From assembly GCA_025812035.1 (NCBI GenBank), contig GCA_025812035.1_4719.1: 64,000 bases of DNA; one strand, given 5' to 3'. A program made the translations under genes and the position numbers. The notes under the pieces are model-generated. The model saw nothing but the letters and a program-made list of their open reading frames with translations, did no database searches and was not told the origin of the DNA. Of the stretch, positions 17,421-48,410 are shown piece after piece; position 1 is the first letter of the stretch; the number at the start of each line of letters is the position of its first letter. Source of the DNA: a phage.

Positions 17421-17445
17421 TCACGTAAGTAATATAGCCGTGAAA
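17421..17445 (-). promoter_or_regulatory. conserved promoter-like motif (minus-strand sense TTTCACGGCTATATTACTTACGTGA)
   Basis: one of four near-identical copies, 49 nt upstream of the HD hydrolase gene. Confidence 0.45.
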
Positions 17446-17494
17446 GGATTTGCATTGGTCCGTTTCGATGACCATCGTATTTTATGGATTGTCG

Positions 17495-17506
17495 AATGAC
17501 GTCATT
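17495..17506. promoter_or_regulatory. perfect 12-bp palindrome AATGACGTCATT in divergent intergenic region
   Basis: identical site at 48303..48314. Confidence 0.35.
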
Positions 17507-17589
17507 TTTAAAGGGACATCCCCGGCCTCCTCCCCGGGAAAGGTGCGGGGAGGAGTTTTTACATACTTTCTATTAATTCGAGCGCGATT

Positions 17590-19671
17590 ATGTTGGATAG
17601 AATAAATCGTCTAATGAACCGAATAGCGGTTAAAAATCAGAGTAACAACACCGTGCATATCGGGGGTATCGATGCCTGGCGTCTTTCAGATGACATTCAG
17701 AGAATATGGGGTACCTCCCGATTTATGAAACATATGTTTCGTAATTTCTCTTCCAGTGGACTCAGTCTTCACAACTTTTACCTTCCCGATTTCGTTTATA
17801 TTCTTGAAACGATCATCGAGGCAAAGAATACCCGCAGTAACAAACGCATGCTGAAACACCTTATCGAGGTGCTGCTGCAGGAAACATGGCTGCAAAATAC
17901 CACAATCGAGCAACCTGCAATCCTCGATAAAGCGCGCATGAAGAAAATGATGACGCTTTCTTTGTTCGATTATCAAGATGAGTTTATCGACATCTATAAC
18001 CGTAACGTACCTAAATATCGACTGAAAGGATACGTGTGTGCGATGGGTGCCGGTGCCGGTAAAACTATTACCGCCTTGGCCTTAAGTGCCGCCATGAACG
18101 TCGACGTGTTTGTGGTGTGTTGTCCTAAAAATACGATGCGTTCAGCATGGCAATCCGATGTAAACAAAGCCATCGTTGACCCTGCAACAGAAACCGCGTT
18201 CTGGTCAGATACCATGCCACCATCACAACTACAGAAAAGCGATAAGTACTATTTCCTGCATTACGAATCGATGGGCTTATTAAACGATGTAATGATCAAA
18301 CATAAACGTACAGCGAAACGCGTTCTTATTGTTGTTGACGAAAGCCATAACTTCAACGACAAGAACAGTCAACGTTCCCAACGATTGGTTGATCTTGTAC
18401 AGACGATGCGTCAGACCATGAATGCGGATGTGCATGTCTTGTTTATGTCGGGTACGCCTGTTAAGCAGATGGGTTCTGAGATGATCCCGTGTTTAGGTTG
18501 TATTGACCCGATGTTCCAAGGACAGGTGGTCGATAGCTTCAAATCAATTTACGGTTTAACCAGCAGCCGTGCTAACGATATCCTCAGACATCGTCTTGGG
18601 TTCATGATGCACGTTGTACCTAAAGAAGCTTATCGTAAAACCCGCCCGGAAGTTCAGGACGTTTACGTGAAACTTCCTAACGGTAGCGATTATACCATCT
18701 CGAGTATCCGTGACGATATGGCGATATTTGTACGCGATCGGGCTAAGTATTACAAGGATAACTGGGGGCATTACCGAAAGATCTTTGATGACGCCTTGGA
18801 TTATTACCGTAAAACTATCCGTACTGATGGAGAACGTAGAGAGCTGTCTCGATATGAATCGATTGTCGCTCGTTTCCAGAAAGGTTACGATCCTGTCAGA
18901 GACAAAGAAGATGCGATGTTCTGCAACGCGTTTGAAAAACGTTCCATCATGCCGGTTCTTCCTTCCGATTTAAGGATCGCTTTCAAAGACGCCAAGAGCG
19001 TCATCAAGTACGTTGGGTTGAAAATTCAGGGTGAAGCGTTAGCTCGTGTTCTAGGTGCTGCCCGCATTCGGTGTCATGTCGACATGGTGGAGTACATTGA
19101 CTTCGAAGGGTACATCAACAACGCTGAAGCCAAGGTGTTGATCTTCACGTCGTATGTTCAGGTGGTTGAACGTGTCGACACCATGCTTCGCGATGCTGGT
19201 TTCTTACCTGAACCGATTTACGGGAAGACTAACAAGAACATCAACCAGATACTTGCTCGTTTACGTGACGATCCTGACAGCGGTCCCGCTATCGCAACAT
19301 TTGATAGTTTGGCTGAAGGGGTTCCAATGCTGATGTGTAATGTGGGCCTTTTCCTGAACAACCCATGGCGTTCGTCTGATGAAATTCAGGCCATCAGCCG
19401 TCTCGATCGTGTAGGGCAAACGCAACCTGTTCGGATTTATCGTTTCATGTTAGACACAGGAAGTGAGGGTAACGTTTCTACACGTAGTCATGAGATCATG
19501 GAGTTAAGTCGACAGCTTGTTGAAGAAATCACTGGCGTCAAATACGTAGTGAACAAGCAAGATGATGTTAACTTGCAAGAAACGTTAGCGATGGAAGGAT
19601 ACGATCAATACGTTACCGTAAACCCTAAGGAATACGATATTAAACCGCGGTCTGTGTTCTTGGAATGGTGA
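17590..19671 (+). CDS. SNF2-family ATP-dependent helicase
   Basis: Walker A MGAGAGKT, DESH box (VVDESHNF), motif VI QAISRLDRVGQTQPVRIYRF; terminator hairpin directly downstream. Confidence 0.75.
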   Translation: MLDRINRLMNRIAVKNQSNNTVHIGGIDAWRLSDDIQRIWGTSRFMKHMFRNFSSSGLSLHNFYLPDFVYILETIIEAKNTRSNKRMLKHLIEVLLQETWLQNTTIEQPAILDKARMKKMMTLSLFDYQDEFIDIYNRNVPKYRLKGYVCAMGAGAGKTITALALSAAMNVDVFVVCCPKNTMRSAWQSDVNKAIVDPATETAFWSDTMPPSQLQKSDKYYFLHYESMGLLNDVMIKHKRTAKRVLIVVDESHNFNDKNSQRSQRLVDLVQTMRQTMNADVHVLFMSGTPVKQMGSEMIPCLGCIDPMFQGQVVDSFKSIYGLTSSRANDILRHRLGFMMHVVPKEAYRKTRPEVQDVYVKLPNGSDYTISSIRDDMAIFVRDRAKYYKDNWGHYRKIFDDALDYYRKTIRTDGERRELSRYESIVARFQKGYDPVRDKEDAMFCNAFEKRSIMPVLPSDLRIAFKDAKSVIKYVGLKIQGEALARVLGAARIRCHVDMVEYIDFEGYINNAEAKVLIFTSYVQVVERVDTMLRDAGFLPEPIYGKTNKNINQILARLRDDPDSGPAIATFDSLAEGVPMLMCNVGLFLNNPWRSSDEIQAISRLDRVGQTQPVRIYRFMLDTGSEGNVSTRSHEIMELSRQLVEEITGVKYVVNKQDDVNLQETLAMEGYDQYVTVNPKEYDIKPRSVFLEW

Positions 19672-19678
19672 TTAAGAA

Positions 19679-19711
19679 GCTCTGCCTGATGTCAGGCAGA
19701 GCTTTATGCTG
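19679..19711 (+). terminator. hairpin followed by TTTATGCTG after the SNF2 helicase gene
   Basis: stem GCTCTGCCTGA/TCAGGCAGAGC, then TTTATGCTG. Confidence 0.6.
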
Positions 19712-19748
19712 CGTTTACTGCAAAATCGTATGACGTATATACGTCGTA

Positions 19749-21227
19749 ATGATTAAAAATAGGGCAGAACACATGAAACTCAAACAAAGCTGGAAAAACG
19801 AACTCCTTGCATTAGTAAACAGCAAAAACAGTTTACAACTGACATTAGACGACGTAAAATTTGAACTAACCGAACCGGTAAGCGAAGTGCCTGGAACGGT
19901 CGTTGTTACGATCAAACCGAACGATAATAGTCGCTACTTTAACGAGCAGTCTCTGACCTACGTCCGTCGAGACATTGCTAAAAACTTCACCGGGATTCCG
20001 TTACGGGTTATCGTTAAAAAAGATACCGCCGTAAGGGATATCATCAGTACGATTGCTAAACGTTACGGACTGGTATTTGATACCACTGTCGACTTCCTCG
20101 AATCAGAACTGAATAAGCAAATTACTTTCGCAGACACCGGTATTAAAGACGTTACGGTTCCGGTTGCCAATACGTCTTATGTTTGGGCCGGTAATCTTCA
20201 GTTCAATATCGCTAACGATACGTTAAGCTTGATTACTATCATCAAGAAAACCGATCTTACGAATCTGGTTTATCTGGATGGTGTTGAAGCTGACACATCG
20301 GGGTCGTTACTGTTAGCAACCGCAGCACTTGTTAACGAACACGTAAATGAACCGATGGTTGAAAACGAAGATATCGTTAATGAATTCATTAACGTTCTTA
20401 ATGCTCTAGCCAAATATGGTGACATAACCGGCGATGAATTAGATGCCGCCTTACAAGCGTACGATGAAGCAGAAAACAGGAATAAAACCACGGTAATAAC
20501 TCTTGGTGATATCGAGTGCGTTGCAACCGAAAAAGACGATTGGGAAATTGGACATTTACGCGGTCGGATGGTTCTCGCGCTCAAATCCGATAAACAACCG
20601 GAGCTCGATAACACGTTCAGGTTGTTTACGAATGGTGGTGATGTATCGCTAACGTTAAACACAATGAAAGATATAAGTATCGATTGGGGTGATGGGAATA
20701 AAGTAACGTTGGATGCCGAAGAAAGATACGCGCACCACACATATGCCGACAATAACCAATACCAAATCGAAATTGTGTCTCGTACGGACCCAGATGTGCT
20801 GCGACCAAATTATATTTCTGGGAGTGAGATAACCGAAGTAATTCACTGGGCTACTACTTCAACAATAGCTCTGAATTTTGTTGGATGCGATAATTTAGCG
20901 ACTGTTCCAGATGAGATCCCAACTTCGTGGACAACGTTGGACAGCATGTTTGAAAGTTGTACGAATTTGAATGATCCGTCTATCTCTAACTGGAATACAA
21001 GTAACATCACATCAATGAATGGTATGTTCGGCGGATGCACTAAATTTAACCAACCTTTAGCTGCCTGGGATGTCAGCTCGGTAACTGACATTGGTGGTAT
21101 GTTTGTCGGGTGTAGCAGTTTTAACCAAGATTTAAGTGGATGGCGATTACCGTCTGGAGTAAACCACCGCGATTACGATAGTGGTGCTTTCTCGTGGCAG
21201 ACGGAACATAAACCGACGTTCAAGTAA
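19749..21227 (+). CDS. protein with C-terminal DUF285/BspA-type repeats (possible start at ATG 19773)
   Basis: tandem repeats of MF..C..(L/F)N...S.W(N/D)(T/V)S.(I/V)T.M..MF over the last 100 residues. Confidence 0.6.
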   Translation: MIKNRAEHMKLKQSWKNELLALVNSKNSLQLTLDDVKFELTEPVSEVPGTVVVTIKPNDNSRYFNEQSLTYVRRDIAKNFTGIPLRVIVKKDTAVRDIISTIAKRYGLVFDTTVDFLESELNKQITFADTGIKDVTVPVANTSYVWAGNLQFNIANDTLSLITIIKKTDLTNLVYLDGVEADTSGSLLLATAALVNEHVNEPMVENEDIVNEFINVLNALAKYGDITGDELDAALQAYDEAENRNKTTVITLGDIECVATEKDDWEIGHLRGRMVLALKSDKQPELDNTFRLFTNGGDVSLTLNTMKDISIDWGDGNKVTLDAEERYAHHTYADNNQYQIEIVSRTDPDVLRPNYISGSEITEVIHWATTSTIALNFVGCDNLATVPDEIPTSWTTLDSMFESCTNLNDPSISNWNTSNITSMNGMFGGCTKFNQPLAAWDVSSVTDIGGMFVGCSSFNQDLSGWRLPSGVNHRDYDSGAFSWQTEHKPTFK

Positions 21228-31101: not shown

Positions 31102-31132
31102 AGGACTTCCTATTATCGAATTGAGGTACGTT

Positions 31133-31550: not shown

Positions 31551-32831
31551 TCAGAAACGATTTACGGTACGTCCTGTCCACGCATTCAAGATGCTGTTAC
31601 GTTCCATCTCAGCGCGACGACGTAAACCGTTTGGCGTCTGCGGTGCTGGCGGCATCCCCCATCCAGCAGGCTGCATACCCATACCTGGCCAAGCGGCATT
31701 ATTGAACGTCGTACCGTTGCGTTCTGCGACACGGCTCATCAACGCATCAAATGCGCTATTCCCTGCCGGTTGGTTACCGCCACTTTCCCATTGATTAGGT
31801 TGAACCGGAGCGGTTTTACCTAACAGGTTATCGATCACATTGCCCGTTGCACCAGGACGCGACTGCATGCCTTCATGTGCGGCTGCTGATGGGTTTGGCT
31901 TAACCGTCGGCTGTGGACGACTGTTCAGCGTTACACCCATGTTGTATTTCGCTGGCGGAATCTGACCACGATGTTGGTTAATCGGTTCAAAATCCTCGAC
32001 CCAGGTAACATCGCAATAACCATTCTCTTTACCGTCGTACTTGTCACCAAACAGTTTGATGAGATTGTTCAGCGGTTCCATCAACTTAGCGAAGCTGTGG
32101 ATAAGACAATCGAAATAGGGGGCATGTGGATCGCTTGACCCAGCATTATACGTTTCACTGACTTCACCTGCGTGCGGAATAACGTACTCAACCAGGTTTC
32201 TCAACATGTTAAGATCTTTCTTGGAAATCTCAACACCACACCAGTACGTTTTCTTATCTTTCGTGCTGATGTGTTCTTCTTCCATGAACGGGAACGTAAC
32301 TACCGCAACACGGGTCATCTTCTTACCCATATAGGTTGCGCCAGTACGACGAAGATAAATTTTAGACAACGTATACGGCGTGTCACGCTTCAACCAAACG
32401 GTGACCAGTTTACCTAACGTCGTTAACGTTTTATCGCTGGCATCCGCAAGGATGTTGAAGAACTCTTTTTGTTTCGGACCGAAACGTTTTGCTTCTTTAG
32501 GGTTGATTGCGGTTTCAACCATCCAAATCAGCATGGAGCACAGTGTAGCGTTAAAACGAACAACCATCGCACGGCGCAGGAACTGAAGCACTTCCGATTC
32601 ACCGTTCATCACGTCTTCACTTAGCGGATGGAACAACACACGTTCAGCCAACTGATTTCCGGTACGAACTTCGGGAACCGGCATCAGCAACGGCATGCTT
32701 TCCACGGTAGCGGCAACTGCAACAACTTTACCATCCCCATCCGTAAAACGATATTCTAATTCGTGGGCATCGTTCTCAAAATAGTTAACGCTTTGTAGCG
32801 CTTTACGATAAGCTTCAATAAGCTTCGACAT
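31551..32831 (-). CDS. hypothetical protein with Gly/Pro/Gln-rich C-terminal region
   Basis: ATG 32829..32831 preceded by AAGGAAA; low-complexity C-terminus. Confidence 0.5.
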   Translation of the reverse strand: MSKLIEAYRKALQSVNYFENDAHELEYRFTDGDGKVVAVAATVESMPLLMPVPEVRTGNQLAERVLFHPLSEDVMNGESEVLQFLRRAMVVRFNATLCSMLIWMVETAINPKEAKRFGPKQKEFFNILADASDKTLTTLGKLVTVWLKRDTPYTLSKIYLRRTGATYMGKKMTRVAVVTFPFMEEEHISTKDKKTYWCGVEISKKDLNMLRNLVEYVIPHAGEVSETYNAGSSDPHAPYFDCLIHSFAKLMEPLNNLIKLFGDKYDGKENGYCDVTWVEDFEPINQHRGQIPPAKYNMGVTLNSRPQPTVKPNPSAAAHEGMQSRPGATGNVIDNLLGKTAPVQPNQWESGGNQPAGNSAFDALMSRVAERNGTTFNNAAWPGMGMQPAGWGMPPAPQTPNGLRRRAEMERNSILNAWTGRTVNRF

Positions 32832-32888
32832 ATTACATTTCCTTTTTCTTTTTACGTCAACGGTCCCCCTCAACAGGGGACCTATGGA

Positions 32889-34475
32889 TTAGAAGTTGCC
32901 TTTGGTAGTTACCGCATCCACCAAGTTGAACAAATCAACGCTCAGCTTATAAACCTCCTGCTGGCTACGGTTGAGCAGCGGGCTGTATGCGGACGGGTTG
33001 ATGTTCGGCATGGTGTACGGAATCGGCGCAGAGCCATCAACGCTGATCTTGAACTGGCTGTCCAGGAACAGGTTAATCGCACCGCTCACCATAACCGCAT
33101 TCGGGTTGTTACCCAACATGGAGGGTAGGATATTGGTAATCATGTCGGAACGCATTTGTTCAGCAGCACGGTTACAATCGTATCCTTTAATGAACGGTAC
33201 GGCATCGGTAACCGCAACCGCCCACTGACCAGGCATGATACCGAGTTCTGGGTGACCATGGTTGTCCGCGATGAAACGGAACGACTCCAGCATGCGATAT
33301 GTCATCGCAGCAGGCATCATCGCAGCAAGCGATGAGCAGTACAATGTCGGATAATCGATAACGTCCCAGCTCTGGCTATCGGTTGGCATCCAACCAAACT
33401 CGGTGGTTGCTGATGTACCACGACGGGCCTCCACATACGGGAATAGCGTTAAGACATCACGGATATGTTCGCCGAACATCCGTTTCATGTCGGCCCAACT
33501 CATGCTACCACTGAAAGCGAATCCTTCATCACGCATAATTGCACCGAATACGGGATGCGCAACCAACGGTTCTTCACGAACGGCTTGAGCTGCTTCTACG
33601 TAAATATCTTCGTTCTCAGCGCTACCTGGATGAGACCCACTTTCGTACGTCTGGCGGATAGCACCAACATTATCGAACGCCTTCCTTAAATAGATAGTCG
33701 GGATGTTCGTATCAACACTGGCTGGTTTGATTTTCTCCGTTGCGAAACACATCGCCGCTTCCACGCCACGAAAAACCGGTTCGGGTTGTGGTGCGTAGGA
33801 TGTACGATTAACCACATCAGCGTAGGCGGGATCGAACTGCTGCATCACGTTCTGCATGGCTGGGTCCATGAATTGGTTATCAAAACCGCCCTGACCCACC
33901 CAGCGTGCCGTCGATGCATACGTCAGCGTATCCTGAACACGAGTACTGAACTGGACGTTGCGGTTAACGGGGTCATATGCACCGGTCAAAAGGTTCGTTG
34001 CGTCCATCGGGGTTGCACGAACGATTTGCTTACCGAACATATCCGTCGTGGTTGTTTCGGTGACCTGGATTACGTTCGTGAAGAAGAACACCAGTTCGTT
34101 CGGTAGATCGATCGCACGTGTTGTAAACGCATCGAGGCTTACAGAATGGTCGGTGTATCCAGAAATGTAGTGGACACGCTTGGTTCCTGGTGCAAGAGCC
34201 AAGGATTCTTCCACAGCCATCATGAAATGGAAACGGCGTGTACCCCAACCATTCGCAATTTCCGAAACCCCCTCAGGTTCCGCAGACTGTTGCAACAAGC
34301 CGGTCGCAAGCTTATTGATTGCTGATGGTGTTGTTGCCGTACCGAACTTCGTCGTGTTGATAAAGTCTTCGATACTACGCATGCTGTCTGCGTGGAATCG
34401 TAGCGGGCGACGTTGTACATTGTTATACGGTGCGGTTTCAACCATCAGTATTTCACGAACATTCATCGGGATCAT
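32889..34475 (-). CDS. hypothetical protein (528 aa), possibly structural
   Basis: long ORF with strongly biased codon use. Confidence 0.55.
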   Translation of the reverse strand: MIPMNVREILMVETAPYNNVQRRPLRFHADSMRSIEDFINTTKFGTATTPSAINKLATGLLQQSAEPEGVSEIANGWGTRRFHFMMAVEESLALAPGTKRVHYISGYTDHSVSLDAFTTRAIDLPNELVFFFTNVIQVTETTTTDMFGKQIVRATPMDATNLLTGAYDPVNRNVQFSTRVQDTLTYASTARWVGQGGFDNQFMDPAMQNVMQQFDPAYADVVNRTSYAPQPEPVFRGVEAAMCFATEKIKPASVDTNIPTIYLRKAFDNVGAIRQTYESGSHPGSAENEDIYVEAAQAVREEPLVAHPVFGAIMRDEGFAFSGSMSWADMKRMFGEHIRDVLTLFPYVEARRGTSATTEFGWMPTDSQSWDVIDYPTLYCSSLAAMMPAAMTYRMLESFRFIADNHGHPELGIMPGQWAVAVTDAVPFIKGYDCNRAAEQMRSDMITNILPSMLGNNPNAVMVSGAINLFLDSQFKISVDGSAPIPYTMPNINPSAYSPLLNRSQQEVYKLSVDLFNLVDAVTTKGNF

Positions 34476-34476: not shown

Positions 34477-36063
34477 TTATTTTTTTCCTCTTAAATTTAC
34501 TACGTGTTCATTTAATCGAACAACTAATTGCACAAGCTGCTGACGGATATCTGCTGGACAAAGCATCAACCCTTTACGATCAGCTGGGACTTTCTCAAGA
34601 ATTTCCGGGCCTGCTGCTGAAACATCCCAGTCCCATTCACAAAACGCATCGGCTACCATGTTAATACCGACAACCGGTAAAGTTGTACGTTCATCTTCAT
34701 ACATGGCATGCGGATACAATTTATTGACGGTAATAATCTCCTGTGGTTTTAACTGGTGGATAATCTGATAAACATCGTCACGTTTAACCTGGATACCTAC
34801 GGTCAGCGCGGCCAGTTGAGGAAAGCCCCAATGGTCTAATAAGCAAGCTGCAATTGCTAACGCTTTTGCCTGATGCACGGCTTCAATCGGTGAAAGACTT
34901 CTCGCCGGAAGATGGCTATCAAGCAGCCATTGCGCCAGCGCTCGGCATCCGCGGTTGATTGGTTTTAACTCAACGGTGTCATCGTGTTTAGCGTACGTGT
35001 ACCCATCGTAACGTTTTGCGATACGTGCGTACATGTCCTCAACTTTACCGTAAGGTGCTGTTTCGTCGACGTCGTGAAGCACCCGTTCCATCTGGGTAAG
35101 ATACGCAATATCAAGGATGAGCACGCGCGGTGAACGTTTATCTTTCACCATCAGTGCATCAATCACACCTTGGCTATCTTCATCTTGCGCGTTCCCTCGT
35201 GGGGTTTTCTCGCGAATAGGTCCACTGAAACGTCGTTCCGTACAAAGGTTATTCACGTAGCTAAAGATCAGTGTCACTAGGTGTGTACAGCTCACCAACA
35301 CCCCATCTTTAACAACAGGCTGTACGGCTTGGTCCAAATCACGTACTGCGAGACGTCTGACGATGGCTTGTGAACGCAACCAACCTGGCACTTTCTCCGT
35401 TGACATGTAATCCACTGTCATCGACAACGTGATCTTTTTATCACCCGTCTGTGCACGGATATAGTCTTCCAGTCGGTCGTAAGCAGCGATGTCGTGAATG
35501 CGTGTTTTATACATCAACGACATAGCCACTTCTTCTTTACGTACCGTCCCGTACGTTTTCCCAGCATCGATCAGAAACTCTGCCCAAATCGGCACCATCA
35601 GACGAACGTAGATCGCTAACGCCGTTAACTCAACGTAATCATTTCGTAAATAGGTTTTCTCGGGTATATCGTCCTCGCCTAATGTCGTTTTCATGTCTGG
35701 TGGTAATTTTACCCAGCCTGGGGTATTACACAACGCCAGAATCTCTTCATACACAACCGGTTTGTAGATTTCACCGACAGCGCGGCTCAACTCCTCCATT
35801 TGTTGTTGTGGAGCAATGTAGTTATCCATCGCCTCACGTGCTTTAACGAACCCTTCAAAGATGTCGTCGATGCGACGTGGGTTCTTTTGTTCTATCCAAG
35901 CGAGATACTTGTTAATCTCCCGCATCTGATTGCTGGCCATATCCCCATCGATCTTGATGTAGCCCTGACCTGAAAATTCCACGGTACGTCCATCACGATG
36001 TTTGATGAGATAGTGATCCAGCTTTTCTTTGCCTTGCGTCGTAATGACCGGCACAATGTGCAT
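34477..36063 (-). CDS. hypothetical protein (528 aa)
   Basis: long ORF; conserved promoter-like motif 54 nt upstream. Confidence 0.55.
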   Translation of the reverse strand: MHIVPVITTQGKEKLDHYLIKHRDGRTVEFSGQGYIKIDGDMASNQMREINKYLAWIEQKNPRRIDDIFEGFVKAREAMDNYIAPQQQMEELSRAVGEIYKPVVYEEILALCNTPGWVKLPPDMKTTLGEDDIPEKTYLRNDYVELTALAIYVRLMVPIWAEFLIDAGKTYGTVRKEEVAMSLMYKTRIHDIAAYDRLEDYIRAQTGDKKITLSMTVDYMSTEKVPGWLRSQAIVRRLAVRDLDQAVQPVVKDGVLVSCTHLVTLIFSYVNNLCTERRFSGPIREKTPRGNAQDEDSQGVIDALMVKDKRSPRVLILDIAYLTQMERVLHDVDETAPYGKVEDMYARIAKRYDGYTYAKHDDTVELKPINRGCRALAQWLLDSHLPARSLSPIEAVHQAKALAIAACLLDHWGFPQLAALTVGIQVKRDDVYQIIHQLKPQEIITVNKLYPHAMYEDERTTLPVVGINMVADAFCEWDWDVSAAGPEILEKVPADRKGLMLCPADIRQQLVQLVVRLNEHVVNLRGKK

Positions 36064-36112: not shown

Positions 36113-36136
36113 CCACAAAGGTAATATAAGCGTGAA
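36113..36136 (-). promoter_or_regulatory. conserved promoter-like motif copy
   Basis: GCTTATATTACCTTTGTGG on minus strand, 54 nt upstream of gene 34477..36063. Confidence 0.4.
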
Positions 36137-36267
36137 TAATTTTGGATTCCTGCTGAGTTATCGCTCAGCATGCAAGGCATCCCGCCGAAGCGAGACACCT
36201 TGCATTAACGGAAAATATTCGCGTTACCTTCTGAATTAATGATTCAGAATGCGATGCTAAAGCGTTA

Positions 36268-37927: not shown

Positions 37928-37946
37928 ACCCCACAACTCCTTCTTA

Positions 37947-40259: not shown

Positions 40260-40272
40260 GAGGAACTCCTCT

Positions 40273-40722: not shown

Positions 40723-40840
40723 TCTGTTCTCCCCAAGCTTTTCATTTCATAGAGTGGTGGAAATTCGTAGAAAGTTACAAAAATAAAAAAGAATGGGCAG
40801 CCCCTCCCCACCCGAAGGTAGGGAGAGACCACAGATATAT

Positions 40841-41305
40841 TTAAACCAAAGCCGCGATAACGTCATTAACGTTACGGCCTCGTAACTCTGCCGCCAAACG
40901 AATAATTTCATCCAGGGAACGGTTTGTACGAATCTTAGCTACTTTCCAATTTTCAGGATACTGTTCGAAGTTAAGTAACCAAGTCATTACCTTTGCTTGT
41001 TCCACACCGTTAAGTTTGATGGTTGTACGCGGATTGGCTTTGAACCACTTCTTGCTCAGCTGTGCCATACGGCGAACAGGATAAGCGTAAGCGCGGGTCC
41101 AGTCTTTGGACAGATTGTCGAGTAATTCACGGTAGCTGCTGTCGTAGTCTTTGTTGATACGACGTAATAACCAGTTGGCGGTCATTTGATAAAGTTTATC
41201 ATCTTCACGTAAACGCATACCTGCTACCGCTAAATAAATGATAAGACCTGCACCCATGATGAGAGACAGGATAAACAGAACTTGGTTTTCTTGTGCTAAA
41301 GTCAT
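40841..41305 (-). CDS. membrane-anchored protein (N-terminal transmembrane helix)
   Basis: N-terminus VLFILSLIMGAGLIIYLAVAG; conserved promoter-like motif upstream. Confidence 0.5.
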   Translation of the reverse strand: MTLAQENQVLFILSLIMGAGLIIYLAVAGMRLREDDKLYQMTANWLLRRINKDYDSSYRELLDNLSKDWTRAYAYPVRRMAQLSKKWFKANPRTTIKLNGVEQAKVMTWLLNFEQYPENWKVAKIRTNRSLDEIIRLAAELRGRNVNDVIAALV

Positions 41306-41390
41306 TTTACTATCCTCGGATTTCGTTAGGATTTGATTTCCAATATAAGGACGATGTGATATGCCTTATACAGTCGATTGATGTTGTACA

Positions 41391-41415
41391 TCACCTAGGT
41401 AATATAGCCGTGAAA
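41391..41415 (-). promoter_or_regulatory. conserved promoter-like motif copy
   Basis: TTTCACGGCTATATTACCTAGGTGA on minus strand, 86 nt upstream of gene 40841..41305. Confidence 0.45.
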
Positions 41416-41424
41416 AATGTTGGA

Positions 41425-42222: not shown

Positions 42223-42256
42223 GATTGTCCTCGTTTTTCAATTTAAGATTACATAC

Positions 42257-42290
42257 GGCATAAACCCTCCCCGCCTTATGCAGGGAGGGT
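42257..42290 (-). terminator. GC hairpin followed by TTTATGCCG
   Basis: stem CCCTCC/GGAGGG, then TTTATGCCGTATG. Confidence 0.5.
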
Positions 42291-42304
42291 AGCCATTGAA
42301 TGGA

Positions 42305-42943: not shown

Positions 42944-42958
42944 TACAGGCGTCCTCCT

Positions 42959-43183
42959 TTAGCAATGGTTGTTAGTTGCTTCTATTTCGTCAAGATAAGG
43001 TTCTACGTCATCGCCCTCCACGAATTCGTTGAACCAGCAGTCAATGGTAGAAATAACCGGTGACTGGTGTTCACATTTCTTAGATACCTTAAAAGGTACG
43101 TTATTATCCATCATACCGAGTTCGGGTCGAAAACGCCCGAAATGTTTCGCAGTCCAAATGTCTGGGACGATATGGTTGTTCAT
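42959..43183 (-). CDS. RNA polymerase beta' N-terminal fragment, exon 3 (begins MNNHIVP..)
   Basis: MNNHIVP..ELGMMDNNV parallels beta' MAVHVP..ALMMSTNNI directly after the catalytic DGD; preceded by G at 43184. Confidence 0.6.
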   Translation of the reverse strand: MNNHIVPDIWTAKHFGRFRPELGMMDNNVPFKVSKKCEHQSPVISTIDCWFNEFVEGDDVEPYLDEIEATNNHC

Positions 43184-43574
43184 CGTGGTGTTCAGCATGA
43201 GTCGCTACCTCATACCCGCAGCTTTACCTGCAGCTTCCGGTGTTACCGGAATGTCCAGAATACATCTTATCCATATTCCAAATGGAACGTAGGACTTCCG
43301 CGCTGGATCTCGCTTGAGACCACGTATTCGTTGAACCTGCGTTGTTTCACATTCTTGCAAACAAGAATGCCGTATTGCTACGCAACAACCAGGCTGCTGA
43401 TCGAACATTGTCATGTACGGTAGGCATCCCCGAAGGGACTGTCATTGAAGCCGCGTACATCCGCTACCTTGTTTCTACCTTATCGGTTCCTCTTACGAGG
43501 CGTAGCGGCCTTAGCCCTTCCCAGCAATTCACGGAATCCAAGCTCTTCCTTTCGGAAGGCAGGGCCTATGATTA
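43184..43574 (-). ncRNA. candidate ORF-less self-splicing intron 2 (group I-like)
   Basis: P-like GAAUUGCUGGGAAGGG (43515..43530) and Q-like GAUCAGCAGCC (43392..43402); starts after U, ends with G; several local hairpins; P1 and P7 not resolved by eye. Confidence 0.45.
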
Positions 43575-43587
43575 AGCGTCACCGTCG
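43575..43587 (-). CDS. RNA polymerase beta' micro-exon (13 nt, c-GAC-GGU-GAC-GCU, encodes DGDA)
   Basis: only placement that rebuilds NADF-DGD-A-MNNHIVP in frame with U at both 5' splice sites and G at both intron 3' ends. Confidence 0.5.
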
Positions 43588-45028
43588 CTTACGTGCACCG
43601 ACGTTTATTAACTCATGGTTATCCACTGAAATACGGCGTTAGGGAAATAATCCTTCTTGCCGCGTTTTGAGATTTGCAATGCCATATTACTCGGAGACAA
43701 TCTGTAATGCCATGCTGCTTCATCGATAGAACTAAACTTCTTTGTTTCGCCGTTATCAAAGATGATTTTCAACGCTAGTTTAGGTAAATCGTCTTCCGTT
43801 TCTACTAGTTCGAAAGAATCGATATTCTCTGCCAGCGTTAACGGATCAACAGGTAATATCAGCCAACCAGCACGCTGCAATCCTCCACGTAGACTAATTT
43901 GTTTATTCAACGCAGGGGTAGCCATGCCAACTAACTTAGCAGCCAGCTTGCGGTCTTTAATATAAAGACGATAATCTCCGGTATTATTAATAGCATACAC
44001 ACCAAAGTTATTGAACGATACCTTTCCAGCATCGGAACTAGTAAAGCCTACAAAGTCGTGGCTGTCGGTAGCCACGTCGTATTTAAATGCTAATGGCTTG
44101 TTTCGACTGCCGCTAAGATACTTCTTGGCTGTAGATACCGATATGTTGAGATATCGTCCAATAGCATTCAAACTTTCTAGTTCGATGATTTCTCCTGTCA
44201 ATATGTCCTTTAACCGAACATTACCCATCGGTATTGGTGGTTTACCGACATAACCCAATTCACGATATGCGTGTTTCAAGTTATCTGAATCAGTAGCCCA
44301 TTCCAAATTTTCTAGTCTGTTATCCCAACGCACTCCATTAAGATGATTAGGGACACGACGGATTATACCTGACGTCGGATCTGGGTTAAATGTTTCAAGG
44401 ACGATCTGATGATGGTATTTCACTTTGTTGTTCCTAGTGAAAGCGCGATAGTTGTTTTTGCCCGACTTGGGTGGTTCAGTACGAAACAACACTGTCAGAC
44501 TAGACACATCTACTATCGTACCGTTCTTATTAACAACGATACCATCAAAACCATTAACAGGACGATAATCAGACAAACAATCTTCAGAAATTGCCTGTCC
44601 AACTAAAGGTTCACTCAATTTGACCTCCTTTATAAAAGAAGTCGGTGCACGTAATTATCGACTATATCTTCATCCTCGTTGCGAGGAGTCTCCCGTTTTG
44701 GTCTGTGTTTAACAGAGCCTACTCTACTCGACATCGCGTCTTTCGATAGTCTGTGAGCACACATCTTAACGAACATTCGTGGATTCCTAAGCAGGTGAAC
44801 GTTCTTGTTGAGATGCTTCGCTGCGGATTATTCCCGTCCTACCTCTTTTACCATACCCAGTTCATTACGCTGGCCCTCATCTGTGTCACCACGATGAGTT
44901 GGTGTGTAGTCCGATTACAGAAACTTCCCGTCAATTAGAGAGTTTTAACTACGTTCCTGTTACCAGAAACCCGACTCCGACGATATCAATTAAATCAACG
45001 TAAATTATTGATTTAATTGAAGAAACTG
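43588..45028 (-). mobile_element. group I intron 1 with embedded HNH homing endonuclease gene
   Basis: IGS GAGUCGG (44971..44977) pairs with exon end CCGACUU with terminal U-G; P AAUUGACGGGAAG (44924..44936), Q AAUCCGCAGC (44820..44829), R ACAGACUAUCG (44744..44754), S AAGAUAUAGUCG (44659..44670); 12-bp stem 44641..44652 with 43591..43602 loops out the ORF; ends with G at 43588. Confidence 0.7.
43608..44618 (-). CDS. HNH homing endonuclease (intron-encoded), UUG start
   Basis: HHQIVLETF..NHLNGVRWDNRLENLEWATDSDNLKHA HNH motif; AAGGAGGT RBS before UUG; lies entirely inside intron 1. Confidence 0.75.
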   Translation of the reverse strand: MSEPLVGQAISEDCLSDYRPVNGFDGIVVNKNGTIVDVSSLTVLFRTEPPKSGKNNYRAFTRNNKVKYHHQIVLETFNPDPTSGIIRRVPNHLNGVRWDNRLENLEWATDSDNLKHAYRELGYVGKPPIPMGNVRLKDILTGEIIELESLNAIGRYLNISVSTAKKYLSGSRNKPLAFKYDVATDSHDFVGFTSSDAGKVSFNNFGVYAINNTGDYRLYIKDRKLAAKLVGMATPALNKQISLRGGLQRAGWLILPVDPLTLAENIDSFELVETEDDLPKLALKIIFDNGETKKFSSIDEAAWHYRLSPSNMALQISKRGKKDYFPNAVFQWITMS

Positions 45029-46284
45029 AAGTCGGCATTATAACCTTTCAAGATCATCACGCTTAACCCGATGGTGTTATCCTGCGGATCGCGTTTAACC
45101 TTGGTGATTTCAAGACATTGGTTACTGCTTCGGTCAAGTGATGGATTTCGAACAAAACCACACACAATCCCATCAAACGGTGTATCAGCAATAAGCTCAT
45201 CGTGCAGCTCGCTCATCATCGGATGATAATTACGGACATGTTCCGCAACGAACGCACGTGCTGCTCTTGGTGAATAACCACGATGGAATAACTTGGATTG
45301 GATATGTTCTTTATTGGTTAATGTAAATGGCGCGTATGGGAAATGCAGATGATAATAACGATGGTTCGCTGTTATCGAACTGATTACGGTACGCGTGGTG
45401 AATGGATGTAATGTACCTAATATGTTTTTACGTGTGATACCTTTCTTCTTACCGATGAACTCATCGAAAATCGCCGAGTGGTACTGCAGCAGCTTCAGTT
45501 GTACTTTCGCCATCCAGTTTTCTTTCTTTCTGGCGCTCAAAGGTGTTGTTGGGTGATAGATACTATTCAATGTACCGATAGCATCGATCGCACCTTCCAT
45601 TTTGCTATCTGCATAACGACCGGTTGGTGTATTCTCGATAACGAACATCATGGCGGCAGGAAAACTGATATACTGGCTGAAGAACTTATCGCGATGAATG
45701 CGGGTGAATTCTCGTAGCGTATCAACTTTCTCCGTGTTCTTCGGTCCGCGTAACGTAGGTCCTTTATACAAGATCTCCATGATGCGATCGAAGTTCTGTA
45801 TAAAGCTATTTATCCCACGTCGTATCCCGAATACATCGAATTGCTGCTCCAGATAGTTCTTGAGTTCGATGGGTCGTTTTACGTTTGGACGGTAACTGGC
45901 ATCAATGAGCCACGTCATCGTTTCAAAGCTTTTGATATTCAACTCGCTTGCCAGCACGAGATGGACCAACGGGTTAATAAACGCATCAATTCCTTCAGGA
46001 ACACGCGCCCAAACCGTCGAACGAATCTCTTGTTCTGCTGGGTAGGTTACAACCGTTTTACAGTTTGGACACACCGTGCCAAGCAGCTCACCACGATTGT
46101 AGAAACCACATCCACATTGTGGTGTGATATCCAACGTATCGCTGGAGTAAACACGGGTGATAAAACTGTTTAATTTCTTCTTCTCTTCGACGACTTTTGT
46201 GTCGTAATCATTCAACAAAATAGGCGTAAAAGGAAGTTCTGCGAGCTGTCTATCGAAACTCACGATATCGAGCATGATGGCCAT
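45029..46284 (-). CDS. RNA polymerase beta' N-terminal fragment, exon 1 (ends ..YNADF)
   Basis: zinc finger CGCGFYNRGELLGTVCPNCK and ..NPSL.R...Q.....IGL..ILKGYNADF parallel E. coli beta' up to NADF; unspliced frame stops 5 codons after NADF. Confidence 0.75.
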
Positions 46285-46320
46285 GGGGTATCTCCTACAA
46301 ATGAAAAAGAACGTTAGGAC

Positions 46321-46350
46321 GTATAAGGGAGGGAGGTTGCCCTCCCTCCC
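46321..46350 (-). terminator. 10-bp perfect GC hairpin after the 631-aa gene, followed by TTATAC
   Basis: stem GGGAGGGAGG/CCTCCCTCCC, loop TTGC. Confidence 0.6.
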
Positions 46351-46376
46351 GTCAGATTACATCGAACGTTCTTCCA

Positions 46377-48272
46377 TTAGAACAGGTTGAATGCCCCACC
46401 CATGTTGTTACCACCAACGTTCGGACGATCGCTGCGTGCGTAGATGCTACCGGAGATATTACCCAGACCACGAGCACGTGCTGCCATGTTACCACGAACA
46501 GCGGTACCCGCCAGATGCTGGATATTCTCAGGACGGATGGTGAAGCCAGCTTCAGCAGCTGCTTCAATCAACGCAGCAAGCGCTTGCGGTTCGAAGTCGT
46601 AACGCATTGCCCAACCGGTTTGTTCCCAGCTACCAGACAGAACACGATCGATGATTTCGTGACGAGCGACAACACGCTGAGACATCGACATATCGGTACG
46701 GTCGAAGCTGTCTTCCCATGCTTCTACGGTATCCGGGTTAGTGATGTTCATCATGTACAGATCGTCCATATCGCGAATATCGTGACGGTTACCATCCTGG
46801 TGGTTGTAGTGACCCAGCGGGATACGGTTACCGGTAGCGTAGACCAGCGGTTGACCGTATTGATATTTCTTGCTGAAGCAGCCCAGGGTAGTATCATCGA
46901 AGGCACGGAAGAGTGCTTTGTAACCTTCAGAGACTTCCCGAACATCAGCCTCAACATTACCCGTATAGATCTTCTCAGCCGCCGGGATCATACGCAACAG
47001 CCAGCTGTATTCGCCTTCTTCCGGCACGTCGATAGAAATCAGCAGGGACGGATACAGTACCTGTTGCAGGAACTTGTAAATCTGCTCATTGGTTTGAGTA
47101 GACAGATCCAGCGGTGCGGTAACTTCCGGATCCAGCACCATCGCCAGAGCACCCGGGTTATGCGGACCGATACCACGAGCAGCGTTGCTGATTAAAGACT
47201 GCGCCCATGCCATGCCGCTGTTCAGCGTAGCAATGGTACCAATCAGACCCAATACAAAAGTATTCGGTGTGAATGCGTCCAGCTCCAGCGGGTAAGCGCT
47301 GGTCATCACGTAACGCGGCTGGTATTGTACAGTCGGCGGTACCGGATAACCGTTAACCAGAACAGGACCTTGGTTGAAGGTCGGGTTCTGCGGGCTGTAG
47401 GTCAGGTCGATATAGCCGGTAGTTGCGACCAGACGCTGCTGGCTATCGTAATCGCTCATCGCTTGACGGATGCGGTTAGAGATAGTTACAGTGATGTCGG
47501 AACGCACTGGGTTACCAACGATATCGCTGTCCTGCATACCGCTGGTGTTATACTGAACGCTGCTGATCGGCTGATCGCTTGCCATCATGCCCAGGTTGAA
47601 CTGCGGCAGGCCCAGTTTATCACCGAGACGGATTTCGATTGCGGTTTGGATTGCGTTATCTGCAGCAGACAGCAGGGTGGTTGCCAGGTGTGCAGATTCA
47701 GCGGTGATTTCATTGGTCACCACAGCCAGACCAGCGATACGAACAGTACCATTAGCCTTGCCACCAATAGCCGCATACATTGCCGCCATGACTTCGTTGA
47801 TGAACGTGCCGTTCAGGTTATCAACCCAGGTACGCGGTACCAGAATGTTACCATGCGGACCTTGTTCTTCACGACGCGGCAGCGGAGCCAAACCGGCAAC
47901 CAGCGGAAGCACATAACCGAAGAAGTGGTTATGATCACCAACTTTCGCACCACTCATAACCACCAGGGTCGGATACGGTACACTGTACTGACCAGGATCG
48001 ACAGTCACCATGATGAAGTCGTCTTTAAAGCCTTTATCTTCCAGTTCTTTTTCCATCAGACGACGGAGGTTCAGTACTTGCTCAGAACCGGTGTTACGGC
48101 TAATACGACGACTCAGTGTACGGTTGATCGTACGCATCGTATGAGTCACTTTAGGCTGGCCAGCAAAGTCTGCAGCGGTTTCCAGCGCTTCATCTGCACG
48201 TTGTGCGGTGCGGGTTTCAGCTGCACGAATTTCTACATTATCGTTACCGTTTTTACGTACGTCTAAGCCCAT
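46377..48272 (-). CDS. abundant 631-aa protein; candidate nuclear-shell (chimallin-like) or major structural protein
   Basis: very strong codon bias; disordered N-terminus and Gly-rich C-terminal tail; conserved promoter-like motif upstream and strong GC hairpin downstream. Confidence 0.6.
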   Translation of the reverse strand: MGLDVRKNGNDNVEIRAAETRTAQRADEALETAADFAGQPKVTHTMRTINRTLSRRISRNTGSEQVLNLRRLMEKELEDKGFKDDFIMVTVDPGQYSVPYPTLVVMSGAKVGDHNHFFGYVLPLVAGLAPLPRREEQGPHGNILVPRTWVDNLNGTFINEVMAAMYAAIGGKANGTVRIAGLAVVTNEITAESAHLATTLLSAADNAIQTAIEIRLGDKLGLPQFNLGMMASDQPISSVQYNTSGMQDSDIVGNPVRSDITVTISNRIRQAMSDYDSQQRLVATTGYIDLTYSPQNPTFNQGPVLVNGYPVPPTVQYQPRYVMTSAYPLELDAFTPNTFVLGLIGTIATLNSGMAWAQSLISNAARGIGPHNPGALAMVLDPEVTAPLDLSTQTNEQIYKFLQQVLYPSLLISIDVPEEGEYSWLLRMIPAAEKIYTGNVEADVREVSEGYKALFRAFDDTTLGCFSKKYQYGQPLVYATGNRIPLGHYNHQDGNRHDIRDMDDLYMMNITNPDTVEAWEDSFDRTDMSMSQRVVARHEIIDRVLSGSWEQTGWAMRYDFEPQALAALIEAAAEAGFTIRPENIQHLAGTAVRGNMAARARGLGNISGSIYARSDRPNVGGNNMGGAFNLF

Positions 48273-48302
48273 TTGGGATTCCTCTTTTCTTAAACTTTAT
48301 TA

Positions 48303-48314
48303 AATGACGTCATT
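48303..48314. promoter_or_regulatory. perfect 12-bp palindrome AATGACGTCATT
   Basis: identical to 17495..17506. Confidence 0.35.
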
Positions 48315-48336
48315 GAATCAGCTTCTACTCGCTCAT

Positions 48337-48361
48337 TCACCTAGGTAATATAACCCTGAAA
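48337..48361 (-). promoter_or_regulatory. conserved promoter-like motif copy
   Basis: TTCAGGGTTATATTACCTAGGTGA on minus strand, 65 nt upstream of the 631-aa gene. Confidence 0.45.
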
Positions 48362-48385
48362 TTTTTTTCAATATTGGTGTAACCG

Positions 48386-48410
48386 TATTGAACGATATAA
48401 ACCCCTAGGT
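48386..48410 (+). promoter_or_regulatory. inverted copy of the promoter-like motif facing the plus-strand gene 48527..49621
   Basis: GATATAAACCCCTAGGTGAATG; CCTAGGTGAATG is a perfect inverted repeat of 48338..48349. Confidence 0.35.

What the first reader, a model, noticed from the sequence alone, without database searches (positions are those of the whole stretch)
17421..48410. Conserved 24-bp promoter-like motif upstream of four minus-strand genes, with an inverted copy facing a plus-strand gene
Near-identical sequences (minus-strand sense TTCACGGCTATATTACCTAGGTGA) sit 49 to 86 nt upstream of the start codons of the HD hydrolase (17421), gene 34477..36063 (36113), the membrane protein gene (41391) and the 631-aa gene (48337). 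At 48386..48410 an inverted copy faces the plus-strand gene 48527..49621, so 48337..48410 looks like a divergent promoter pair. The motif has TCAC..GTGA dyad ends around an AT-rich core, so it could be a phage polymerase promoter or a dimeric regulator site.
Basis: seen in the sequence. Interest (0 to 1): 0.55.

Follow-up and report, generated by a model that had tools for sequence, protein, structure and literature searches.

The report
Early promoters of a Goslar-like jumbo phage
The repeated 24-bp motif is this Goslar-like E. coli jumbo phage's version of the known early promoter that phiKZ-family phages use with the RNA polymerase they carry in the virion; it sits in front of the phage-nucleus shell gene and second-polymerase genes, so it is real but of an ordinary, known kind.

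Summary
The window is 95% identical to E. coli jumbo phage Goslar (Chimalliviridae). The four minus-strand copies are real. All four match TTCA-N4-TATATTAC-N4-GTG perfectly, all are intergenic, and they lie 49-86 nt upstream of start codons. Nothing else in 64 kb comes within 3 mismatches.

Genome-wide, Goslar has 12 such sites (27.6-37.7 bits; next best 15.3, within the shuffle range). All face the next downstream gene.

The motif has the published architecture of phiKZ-family early promoters (phiKZ TATATTAC; 201phi2-1 TTTRARR-BTATATTAC-DWHDGTG). It occupies orthologous positions:
- upstream of chimallin in phiKZ, Eowyn, RAY, PhiPA3 and RSL2;
- between the gp67/ChmC and gp68 genes in phiKZ.

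Downstream genes are classic early genes:
- chimallin plus the gp55-like nvRNAP subunit;
- the gp68-like sigma-like nvRNAP subunit plus gp69/Imp1 and gp70 homologues.

The best explanation is a promoter for the virion-packaged multisubunit RNA polymerase, with the start site inferred at about the GTGA.

The "inverted copy" is not a true copy. It scores 1.1 bits (6.9 with a free gap), its core is TATAAACC, and its GTGA reads GCGA in three related genomes.

The dimeric-operator, sigma-70 and hairpin-promoter readings are not supported. This is a new member of a known kind, of low interest.

The parts
48337..48361 (-). Early-promoter motif upstream of chimallin: TTTCAGGGTTATATTACCTAGGTGA, preceded by an A-tract (TTGAAAAAAA, to about 48372). 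The start site is inferred at about 48338 (+/-2), giving a 5'UTR of about 66 nt.
   Evidence: 35.8 bits. It is 100% conserved in four Goslar-like genomes. It is orthologous to the phiKZ gp54 early promoter (PMC8244752).
41391..41415 (-). Early-promoter motif TTTCACGGCTATATTACCTAGGTGA, 86 nt upstream of the 154-aa gene 40841-41305. The start site is inferred at about 41392.
   Evidence: 38.8 bits. It differs from Goslar at two positions that are degenerate in the motif.
36113..36137 (-). Early-promoter motif ATTCACGCTTATATTACCTTTGTGG, 50 nt upstream of the gp68-like gene. It lies between the ChmC/gp67 and gp68 homologues. The start site is inferred at about 36114.
   Evidence: 27.9 bits. phiKZ has the same intergenic position, with TTTGAGATCTATATTACTAACATG upstream of gp68.
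17421..17445 (-). Early-promoter motif TTTCACGGCTATATTACTTACGTGA, 49 nt upstream of the HD-domain gene. The start site is inferred at about 17422.
   Evidence: 37.7 bits. The 25-mer is identical in Goslar.
46377..48272 (-). Chimallin (ChmA, phage-nucleus shell protein), the first gene of the unit driven from 48337-48361.
   Evidence: 96% identical to the Goslar nuclear shell protein.
45013..46284 (-). Non-virion RNAP beta'-like subunit (phiKZ gp55 homologue), directly downstream of chimallin, as in phiKZ, Eowyn, RAY and PhiPA3.
   Evidence: PDB 7ogp_A, E 7.7e-62. Synteny is shown.
34477..36063 (-). Homologue of phiKZ gp68, the sigma-like promoter-specificity subunit of the non-virion RNAP. It is the first gene downstream of motif 36113-36137.
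   Evidence: PDB 7ogp_B (PHIKZ068), E 2.5e-28.
31551..34475 (-). Homologues of phiKZ gp69 (Imp1 protein importer; 32889-34475) and gp70 (31551-32873), in the same order as in phiKZ.
   Evidence: BLASTP E 3e-15 and 4e-25. The gp69 = imp1 naming is from PMC12676376.
16686..17372 (-). HD-domain phosphohydrolase gene, the first gene downstream of motif 17421-17445.
   Evidence: Pfam HD, E 5e-8. It corresponds to Goslar gp159.
40841..41305 (-). 154-aa gene with no family match, the first gene downstream of motif 41391-41415. A strong terminator-like hairpin follows it at 40832-40797.
48386..48412 (+). Degenerate inverted element TTGAACGATATAAACCCCTAGGTGAA. It is not a bona fide promoter copy.
   Evidence: 1.1 bits ungapped and 6.9 gapped. 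It reads GGCGAA in Goslar, L012 and L013.

Best explanation
The four sites are early promoters of a Goslar-like chimallivirus.

Inferred mechanism:
- The asymmetric AT-rich core TATATTAC acts as a -10-like element, at about -14 to -7.
- TTTCA (about -23 to -19), together with an upstream A/T tract, forms the upstream element.
- Transcription starts at or next to the conserved (G)TGA.

From these sites the incoming polymerase would transcribe, immediately after infection:
- the phage-nucleus shell gene together with the gp55-like nvRNAP subunit;
- the gp68-like sigma-like nvRNAP subunit together with the gp69/Imp1 and gp70 homologues;
- a 154-aa gene;
- an operon that begins with the HD-domain gene.
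This would set up the second polymerase and the nucleus.

Shown here:
- the motif, its exclusivity and its intergenic, gene-facing placement;
- its family-wide conservation at orthologous positions;
- the identity of the downstream genes.

Inferred by homology with phiKZ and 201phi2-1:
- which polymerase uses the sites;
- the early timing;
- the exact start site.
For: 1. Identity. Window 40000-50000 is 95.2% identical to Escherichia phage Goslar.

2. Exclusivity.
- The window has four perfect skeleton matches and nothing else within 3 mismatches.
- The whole Goslar genome has 12 sites at 27.6-37.7 bits, and the next best scores 15.3; shuffle maxima are 10-21.
- All 12 are on the minus strand, upstream of and co-oriented with a minus-strand gene. 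Eleven are intergenic, and one lies inside an annotated 62-aa hypothetical ORF.

3. Same architecture as published phiKZ-family early promoters. These are phiKZ TATATTAC, 201phi2-1 TTTRARR_BTATATTACDWHDGTG, and OBP/N1M2 TTTCARRYAKATATTATYWAAGTGWA (PMC7058600 Table 2).

4. Orthologous positions.
- An ungapped 10-sequence alignment covers the four window sites, the chimallin-upstream sites of phiKZ, Eowyn, RAY, PhiPA3 and RSL2, and the phiKZ gp68-upstream site. It shows an invariant TATAT-AC, an invariant TG five bases downstream of the core, and an upstream A-tract.
- PHIKZ054 carries the early motif at its primary dRNA-seq start site (PMC8244752).

5. Published rule. Each RNAP-encoding jumbo phage has a conserved AT-rich motif centred near -10 upstream of early operons, taken to be the vRNAP promoter (PMC7598289; PMC11512511).

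6. Downstream genes are known early functions.
- They include chimallin, and nvRNAP subunit homologues matching PDB 7ogp_A and 7ogp_B.
- They also include gp69/Imp1 and gp70 homologues.
- ChmA and the nvRNAP are described as early products.

7. Conservation. The window and Goslar differ at 2 of 100 motif positions, both degenerate in the motif, against 41 of 695 in the surrounding intergenic DNA.
Against: - There are no transcript data for this phage or for Goslar. Start sites, timing and the polymerase responsible are all inferred.
- Only 12 sites were found in 237 kb, against 28-32 early promoters in phiKZ. Either the set is incomplete or the transcription units are longer.
- The window-versus-Goslar comparison is too shallow to show selective constraint statistically (2/100 against 41/695).
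- Direct recognition of this motif class by purified vRNAP was not found in the papers I read.
Confidence: 0.85

Rival explanations
1. The motif is an operator for a dimeric phage or host DNA-binding regulator that reads the TCAC...GTGA dyad, either instead of or in addition to acting as a promoter.
For: The ends TCAC and GTGA are reverse complements. In the 23-mer, 6 of 11 symmetric pairs are complementary (read directly). Conservation extends unusually far, into the start-site region.
Against: - The most conserved part, TATATTAC, is asymmetric.
- Only 5 of 12 Goslar sites carry both TCAC and GTGA, and deviations are not compensatory, for example TCAG...GTGA and TCAC...ATGA.
- phiKZ, RAY and RSL2 keep the core and TG but not the dyad.
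- All sites face the downstream gene.
Confidence: 0.05
2. The sites are promoters for the non-virion RNAP (middle class), or are used by both phage polymerases, rather than being vRNAP-specific.
For: In phiKZ, gene 54 has both an early and a middle start site (PMC8244752). No timing data exist for Goslar.
Against: The motif matches the early class (TATATTAC near -10). It does not match the published middle motif (TACT near -22 after an A-repeat) or the late motif (TATG at +1). Two sites drive nvRNAP subunit genes, which must be expressed before the nvRNAP exists.
Confidence: 0.05
3. The sites are host sigma-70 promoters, with TATATT as the -10 element and a weak upstream -35 such as TTAATC.
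For: TATATT matches TATAAT at 5 of 6 positions. Some sites have TTAAYN 16 nt upstream, giving about 8 of 12 matches overall (read directly).
Against: - None of the four is called by the sigma-70 scan (9 of 12 needed), and sigma-70-like sites are depleted in the region: 14 against 28.8 +/- 5.4.
- Sigma-70 does not explain the invariant C ending the core, the TTTCA placed 4 nt upstream of the core, or the TGA.
- phiKZ-family infection does not depend on the host RNAP.
Confidence: 0.03
4. Sites 48337-48361 and 48386-48412 form a divergent promoter pair that also drives the plus-strand gene 48527-49621.
For: The two share a 10-nt inverted repeat, CCTAGGTGAA. CCTAGG is rare, with 3 in the window against 12.5 expected. 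The element lies about 117 nt upstream of the plus-strand ATG.
Against: - It scores 1.1 bits ungapped and 6.9 gapped, which is background.
- The core is TATAAACC with the wrong spacing.
- GTGA is GCGA in three of four genomes, and 2 of the 7 substitutions in the 254-nt spacer fall inside it.
- No inverted core (GTAATATA) was seen in the printed chimallin-upstream spacers of Eowyn, RAY and RSL2, where a gene also diverges from chimallin (read directly).
- The gene product weakly matches a virion structural family (phrog_14481, E 4e-11), which would suggest late expression.
Confidence: 0.05

Closest known systems
phiKZ early promoters (28-32 sites; mapped by primer extension, 5' RACE, dRNA-seq and ONT-cappable-seq)
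   Same: - It has the same TATATTAC core, a T-rich block upstream of about -19 and an A-tract further upstream.
- It occupies the same positions, upstream of chimallin/gp54 and between gp67 and gp68.
- It drives nvRNAP subunit genes.
   Different: - The Goslar-type upstream block is TTTCAC(G), where phiKZ has TTTGAG.
- The start region (G)TGA is strongly conserved here but variable in phiKZ.
- Goslar has 12 sites, against 28-32 in phiKZ.
- There is no experimental mapping for Goslar-like phages.
Predicted or mapped early promoters of 201phi2-1, OBP and Klebsiella phage N1M2
   Same: The skeleton is nearly the same: TTTCARR - TATATTAY - 4 nt - GTG(A) (PMC7058600 Table 2). In 201phi2-1 the motif lies about 10 bp upstream of mapped start sites (PMC11512511).
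   Different: The hosts and genera differ, and the chimallin proteins are only about 24% identical. The core ends in C here, as in phiKZ and 201phi2-1, but in T in OBP and N1M2.
Bacterial sigma-70 promoters
   Same: An AT-rich -10-like element is read by a beta/beta'-type multisubunit RNAP.
   Different: There is no -35 element at 16-18 nt, and the sites are not called by the consensus scan. The second conserved block lies only 4 nt upstream of the core.
Promoters of single-subunit phage RNAPs: T7/SP6-type promoters and the N4 vRNAP hairpin promoters
   Same: They are long, highly conserved phage-specific promoter sequences. N4 also uses a virion-packaged polymerase for early genes.
   Different: The RNAP genes identified in the window are multisubunit-type. 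No hairpin stands out from shuffled controls (z -1.3 to +0.1).

Membership tests
Chimalliviridae (phiKZ-like) early promoter used by the virion RNAP | Highly conserved AT-rich core of about 8-10 nt (TATATTAC or a close variant) | tested here: met
   All four window sites carry TATATTAC. The 12 Goslar sites carry TA(T/C)ATTAC. The core is invariant (TATAT-AC) across 10 aligned promoters from 6 phages.
Chimalliviridae (phiKZ-like) early promoter used by the virion RNAP | T-rich block upstream of about -19, with an A/T tract further upstream | tested here: met
   TTTCA lies 4 nt upstream of the core, and A-rich sequence lies beyond it. The published description is in PMC8244752 and PMC7058600.
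Chimalliviridae (phiKZ-like) early promoter used by the virion RNAP | Intergenic, co-oriented with early operons that include nvRNAP subunit genes and chimallin | tested here: met
   All four window sites (4/4) and all 12 Goslar sites (12/12) are co-oriented with the next gene. The downstream genes are chimallin, gp55-like, gp68-like, gp69-like and gp70-like.
Chimalliviridae (phiKZ-like) early promoter used by the virion RNAP | Positional orthology with experimentally mapped promoters of a relative | tested here: met
   The same motif lies upstream of phiKZ gp54 and gp68. The PHIKZ054 primary start site carries the early motif (PMC8244752).
Chimalliviridae (phiKZ-like) early promoter used by the virion RNAP | Core centred about 10 nt upstream of a primary transcript 5' end | not testable with these tools
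   No RNA data are available for this phage. The start site is inferred from PMC7598289 and PMC11512511.
Chimalliviridae (phiKZ-like) early promoter used by the virion RNAP | Transcription immediately after infection, independent of host RNAP and of new protein synthesis (the vRNAP) | not testable with these tools
   This requires infection experiments. It is known for phiKZ only.
Chimalliviridae (phiKZ-like) early promoter used by the virion RNAP | The genome encodes two sets of split beta/beta'-like RNAP subunits | tested here: inconclusive
   The window encodes homologues of four nvRNAP subunits: gp55, gp68, gp71 and gp74. The vRNAP genes lie outside the window. Goslar has further genes annotated 'RNA polymerase beta subunit' (gp078, gp196, gp205, gp207), which I did not assign to a set.
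Sigma-70 promoter | -35 and -10 hexamers separated by 16-18 nt, with at least 9 of 12 matches | tested here: not met
   None of the four sites appears among the scan hits.
N4-type hairpin promoter | Stable small hairpin in the promoter strand | tested here: not met
   DNA folding gives -1.7 to -3.2 kcal/mol, with z scores of -1.3 to +0.1 against shuffles.
Palindromic operator of a dimeric regulator | Dyad symmetry conserved across sites | tested here: not met
   Only the 4-nt ends are symmetric. Both halves are present in 5 of 12 Goslar sites, deviations are not compensatory, and the dyad is absent in relatives.
T7/SP6-type promoter | A single-subunit phage RNAP gene is present, and the promoter is conserved from about -17 to +6 | tested here: inconclusive
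   The Goslar annotation lists only beta/beta'-like RNAP genes. I did not screen every ORF for a single-subunit RNAP.

The most novel reading that the evidence does not exclude
The unusually extended conservation has a second function besides vRNAP recognition. The conserved features are the TCAC...GTGA ends, the rare CCTAGG at -6 to -1, and a decayed inverted partner next to the chimallin promoter. One possibility is a binding site for a phage factor that shuts early promoters off, or that times chimallin expression. Another is a remnant of a once bidirectional early promoter. Separately, because the host is E. coli, these 12 sites could provide a tractable system for finding what gives the vRNAP its promoter specificity. 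I found no account of that in the papers I read.
Probability: 0.07. Interest if true: 0.5.

Novelty: new member of a known kind. Interest (0 to 1): 0.2.

Why it matters
The result gives a Goslarvirus-specific early-promoter consensus: an A/T tract, then TTTCAC(G)N(C/T)TA(T/C)ATTAC(C/T)TNN(G)TGA. It also gives a map of 12 candidate early transcription units.

This is useful for annotating Goslar-like phages, for predicting which genes are expressed from the early infection vesicle, and for building early-expression cassettes in an E. coli-infecting nucleus-forming phage.

It also shows that the promoters in front of chimallin and gp68 have kept their positions across genera whose chimallin proteins are only about 24% identical.

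It does not reveal a new mechanism. Reviews already state that such a motif can be found in every RNAP-encoding jumbo phage.

Tried and rejected
- Hairpin (N4-like) promoter: DNA folding of the four sites is indistinguishable from shuffles.
- Sigma-70 promoter: none of the sites is called by the scan.
- Inverted copy as a real site: I tested ungapped and 1-nt-gapped weight-matrix scores and conservation in three sister genomes. It scores at background and is not conserved.
- Intermediate relatives for phylogenetic footprinting: IMG/VR yielded only genomes with 96-98% identical chimallin. The phage database has nothing between 96% and 24% chimallin identity. Footprinting power is therefore limited to very close or very distant comparisons.
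- Exact phiKZ start-site coordinates from supplementary tables: none are held. The Ceyssens 2014 paper is not held either.
- A published description of a Goslar promoter: none found in the searchable library.
- Rfam at gathering thresholds: no hit anywhere in the window.
- The CCTAGG pair in Goslar at 74839/74864: it is simply the stem of a terminator hairpin and is unrelated.
Full report
**What the window is.** Window 40000-50000 is 95.2% identical over 99% of its length to Escherichia phage vB_EcoM_Goslar. Goslar is a 237-kb nucleus-forming jumbo phage. Genes are almost all on the minus strand.

The 631-aa gene 46377-48272 is the nuclear shell protein chimallin. The window also encodes homologues of four subunits of the phiKZ non-virion RNA polymerase (nvRNAP):
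- gp55: 45013-46284, PDB 7ogp_A, E 7.7e-62;
- gp68: 34477-36063, 7ogp_B, E 2.5e-28;
- gp71: 28933-31266, E 1.6e-85;
- gp74: 24853-26859, E 1.3e-86.

Three further homologues complete a syntenic block:
- ChmC/gp67: 36268-37056, E 6e-20 (Goslar gp176 = ChmC);
- gp69/Imp1: 32889-34475, E 3e-15;
- gp70: 31551-32873, E 4e-25.

The gene order 67-68-69-70 is the same as in phiKZ.

**Checking the observation.** The quoted 24-mer with up to 3 mismatches hits 17421, 41391 and 48337 on the minus strand. No hit occurred in 100 shuffles.

The fourth copy at 36113 is more diverged. Even so, all four match TTCA-N4-TATATTAC-N4-GTG perfectly, and every other position in 64 kb has at least 3 mismatches.

With a 25-column weight matrix the four score 38.8, 37.7, 35.8 and 27.9 bits, and the next best scores 15.3. 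Shuffled Goslar genomes reach maxima of 10-21 bits.

All four lie between ORFs. Their 3' ends are 49, 50, 86 and 65 nt from the start codons.

**The inverted copy.** The plus-strand sequence at 48386-48412 is TTGAACGATATAAACCCCTAGGTGAA.
- It shares only the 10-mer CCTAGGTGAA with the real site.
- Its core is TATAAACC, and it needs a 1-nt indel to align.
- It scores 1.1 bits ungapped and 6.9 with a free gap. In the window, 58 positions reach 10 bits or more under the same generous scoring.
- In Goslar and two IMG/VR genomes its GTGA reads GCGA. Two of the seven window-versus-Goslar substitutions in the 254-nt spacer fall inside it. The real promoter and the whole 5'UTR are identical in all four genomes.
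- No inverted core (GTAATATA) was seen in the printed chimallin-upstream spacers of Eowyn, RAY and RSL2, where a gene also diverges from chimallin (read directly).
- The gene it would drive weakly matches a virion-structural family.
- One oddity remains. CTAG is seven-fold depleted in the window (36 observed against 245 expected). CCTAGG occurs only three times, twice in true sites and once here. A decayed relic is therefore possible.

I conclude that it is not a functional copy of the motif.

**Genome-wide behaviour.** I assembled the Goslar genome from five fetched stretches.
- The skeleton pattern gives 6 perfect matches, 1 with one mismatch and 4 with two mismatches.
- After inspection there are 12 sites that score 27.6-37.7 bits, and nothing lies between 15.3 and 27.6. 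These 12 are the sites the matrix was built from, so their own scores are partly circular; the gap to all other positions is the informative part.
- All 12 are on the minus strand, upstream of and facing a minus-strand gene. Eleven are intergenic. One lies inside an annotated 62-aa hypothetical ORF, gp047.
- The degenerate 10-mer core TA[TC]AT[TA]AC[CT]T occurs 17 times. Fourteen of these are upstream of genes and three are inside coding sequence.

**What it is.** Published predicted or mapped early promoters of phiKZ-like phages are (PMC7058600 Table 2):
- phiKZ: TATATTAC;
- 201phi2-1: TTTRARR_BTATATTACDWHDGTG;
- OBP and N1M2: TTTCARRYAKATATTATYWAAGTGWA.

The motif here, TTTCACGGCTATATTACCTAGGTGA, has the same blocks at the same spacing.

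I then looked at orthologous positions. The same element lies upstream of chimallin in five other phages:
- phiKZ: gaaaaaaaTTTGAGATTTATATTACTAAATTGA;
- Eowyn: cgTATATTACTTAGGTGA;
- RAY: tcTATATTACGTATGTG;
- PhiPA3: aaaaaaaTCTCACATCTATATCACAGGTGTG;
- RSL2: TTTCATTGATATATTACAAAGTTGA.

It also lies between gp67 and gp68 in phiKZ, as aaaaaaaaTTTGAGATCTATATTACTAACATG.

Ten such promoters align without gaps. They share an invariant TATAT-AC, an invariant TG five bases downstream of the core, and an A-tract upstream.

The literature supports the assignment:
- In phiKZ, gene 54 carries the early motif at its primary dRNA-seq start site (PMC8244752).
- Reviews state that every RNAP-encoding jumbo phage has such an AT-rich motif, centred near -10, upstream of early operons, and take it to define the promoters of the virion RNAP (PMC7598289).
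- In 201phi2-1 the motif lies about 10 bp upstream of mapped start sites, and conservation is seen around -10, -20 and -30 (PMC11512511).

**How it most likely works.** This paragraph is inference by homology. The vRNAP injected with the genome binds these sites. TATATTAC serves as the -10-like element, at about -14 to -7. TTTCA, at about -23 to -19, and the A/T tract form the upstream contacts. Initiation falls at or next to the (G)TGA. That places the start sites at about 17422, 36114, 41392 and 48338, giving 5'UTRs of about 50-87 nt.

The products fit the known cascade, in which the vRNAP transcribes the nvRNAP subunit genes and the nucleus components. Two of the four sites sit directly in front of units containing nvRNAP subunit genes, namely the gp68-like and gp55-like genes. 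One of these is the chimallin promoter.

Between the window and Goslar, the four 25-nt motifs differ at 2 of 100 positions, both degenerate in the motif. The surrounding intergenic DNA differs at 41 of 695 positions. The direction is as expected, but the comparison has little statistical power.

**Rivals.**
- *Dimeric operator.* Only the four-base ends are symmetric. Both halves occur in 5 of 12 sites, deviations are not compensatory, and relatives lack the dyad.
- *Sigma-70 promoter.* The sites are not called by the scan, and sigma-70-like sites are depleted in the region, 14 against 28.8 +/- 5.4.
- *Hairpin promoter of the N4 type.* No structure stands out from shuffles.
- *nvRNAP (middle-class) promoter.* The motif does not resemble the published middle motif (TACT near -22) or the late motif (TATG at +1). 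The nvRNAP genes themselves must be expressed first.

**Novelty.** I found no paper in the searchable library that describes the Goslar early promoter. The class, however, is well established, and reviews say explicitly that such a motif can be found bioinformatically in each such phage. This is therefore a new member of a known kind, with a slightly different upstream block (TTTCAC against TTTGAG in phiKZ) and a well-conserved start region. Its value is for annotation and engineering, not for concepts.

**Limits.**
- There are no transcript data.
- The close relatives are too close (chimallin 96-98% identical) and the rest too distant (about 24% chimallin identity) for proper footprinting.
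- The original phiKZ paper and the start-site tables were not available.

Noticed in passing
window 26947-26979 (-) and 62991-63023 (-): Two intergenic sites share GGAGAT-N10-CCTACAT(A/T)ACCT. They have the core variant of the early motif but lack TTTCA, and score 15.3 and 11.3 bits. One lies 88 nt upstream of the gp74-like nvRNAP gene (24853-26859) and the other upstream of ORF 62416-62967. Both are conserved in Goslar. They may be a second, weaker or differently timed promoter class.
   Followed up: partly
whole window; CCTAGG at 41394, 48340 and 48404: CTAG is about 7-fold depleted (36 observed against 245 expected). CCTAGG occurs only three times against 12.5 expected, and all three are in or next to early-promoter motifs.
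   Followed up: partly
window 44642-45019 (-) and 43608-44618 (-): A full-length group I intron match (RF00028, 47.8 bits, just under the gathering score of 50, E 1.3e-10) lies immediately after the gp55-like nvRNAP gene. It is followed by an HNH/NUMOD1 homing-endonuclease gene. Goslar carries a matching Intron_gpI annotation at the corresponding place.
   Followed up: partly
window 34000-50000 and 16000-20000: Sigma-70-like promoter matches are fewer than in shuffled sequence: 14 against 28.8 +/- 5.4, and 3 against 6.9 +/- 2.6. This fits a phage that does not use the host polymerase.
   Followed up: no
window 40797-40832 (-): A 16-bp GC-rich terminator-like hairpin with a T-tract lies directly after the 154-aa gene 40841-41305. 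The gene is the first one downstream of the 41391 promoter, so it may form a short, strongly expressed early monocistronic unit. It has no Pfam or PHROG match.
   Followed up: no
window 36165-36205 (-): A hairpin (TGCAAGGTGTCTCGC-TTCG-GCGGGATGCCTTGCA) lies between the ChmC gene and the gp68 promoter. It looks like the terminator of the upstream unit (read directly). phiKZ has a comparable hairpin just upstream of its gp68 promoter.
   Followed up: no
Goslar sites; window 48362-48372 versus 41416-41430: The upstream flanks fall into two types: an A-tract type (TTGAAAAAAA, as in phiKZ; chimallin and three other Goslar sites) and a TTAAYNCAA-N5 type (most other sites). These may be sub-classes differing in strength or timing.
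   Followed up: no
L002 49717-49741 (Goslar gp047, 49584-49772): One of the 12 Goslar promoter motifs lies inside an annotated 62-aa hypothetical ORF. That ORF may be a mis-annotation.
   Followed up: no
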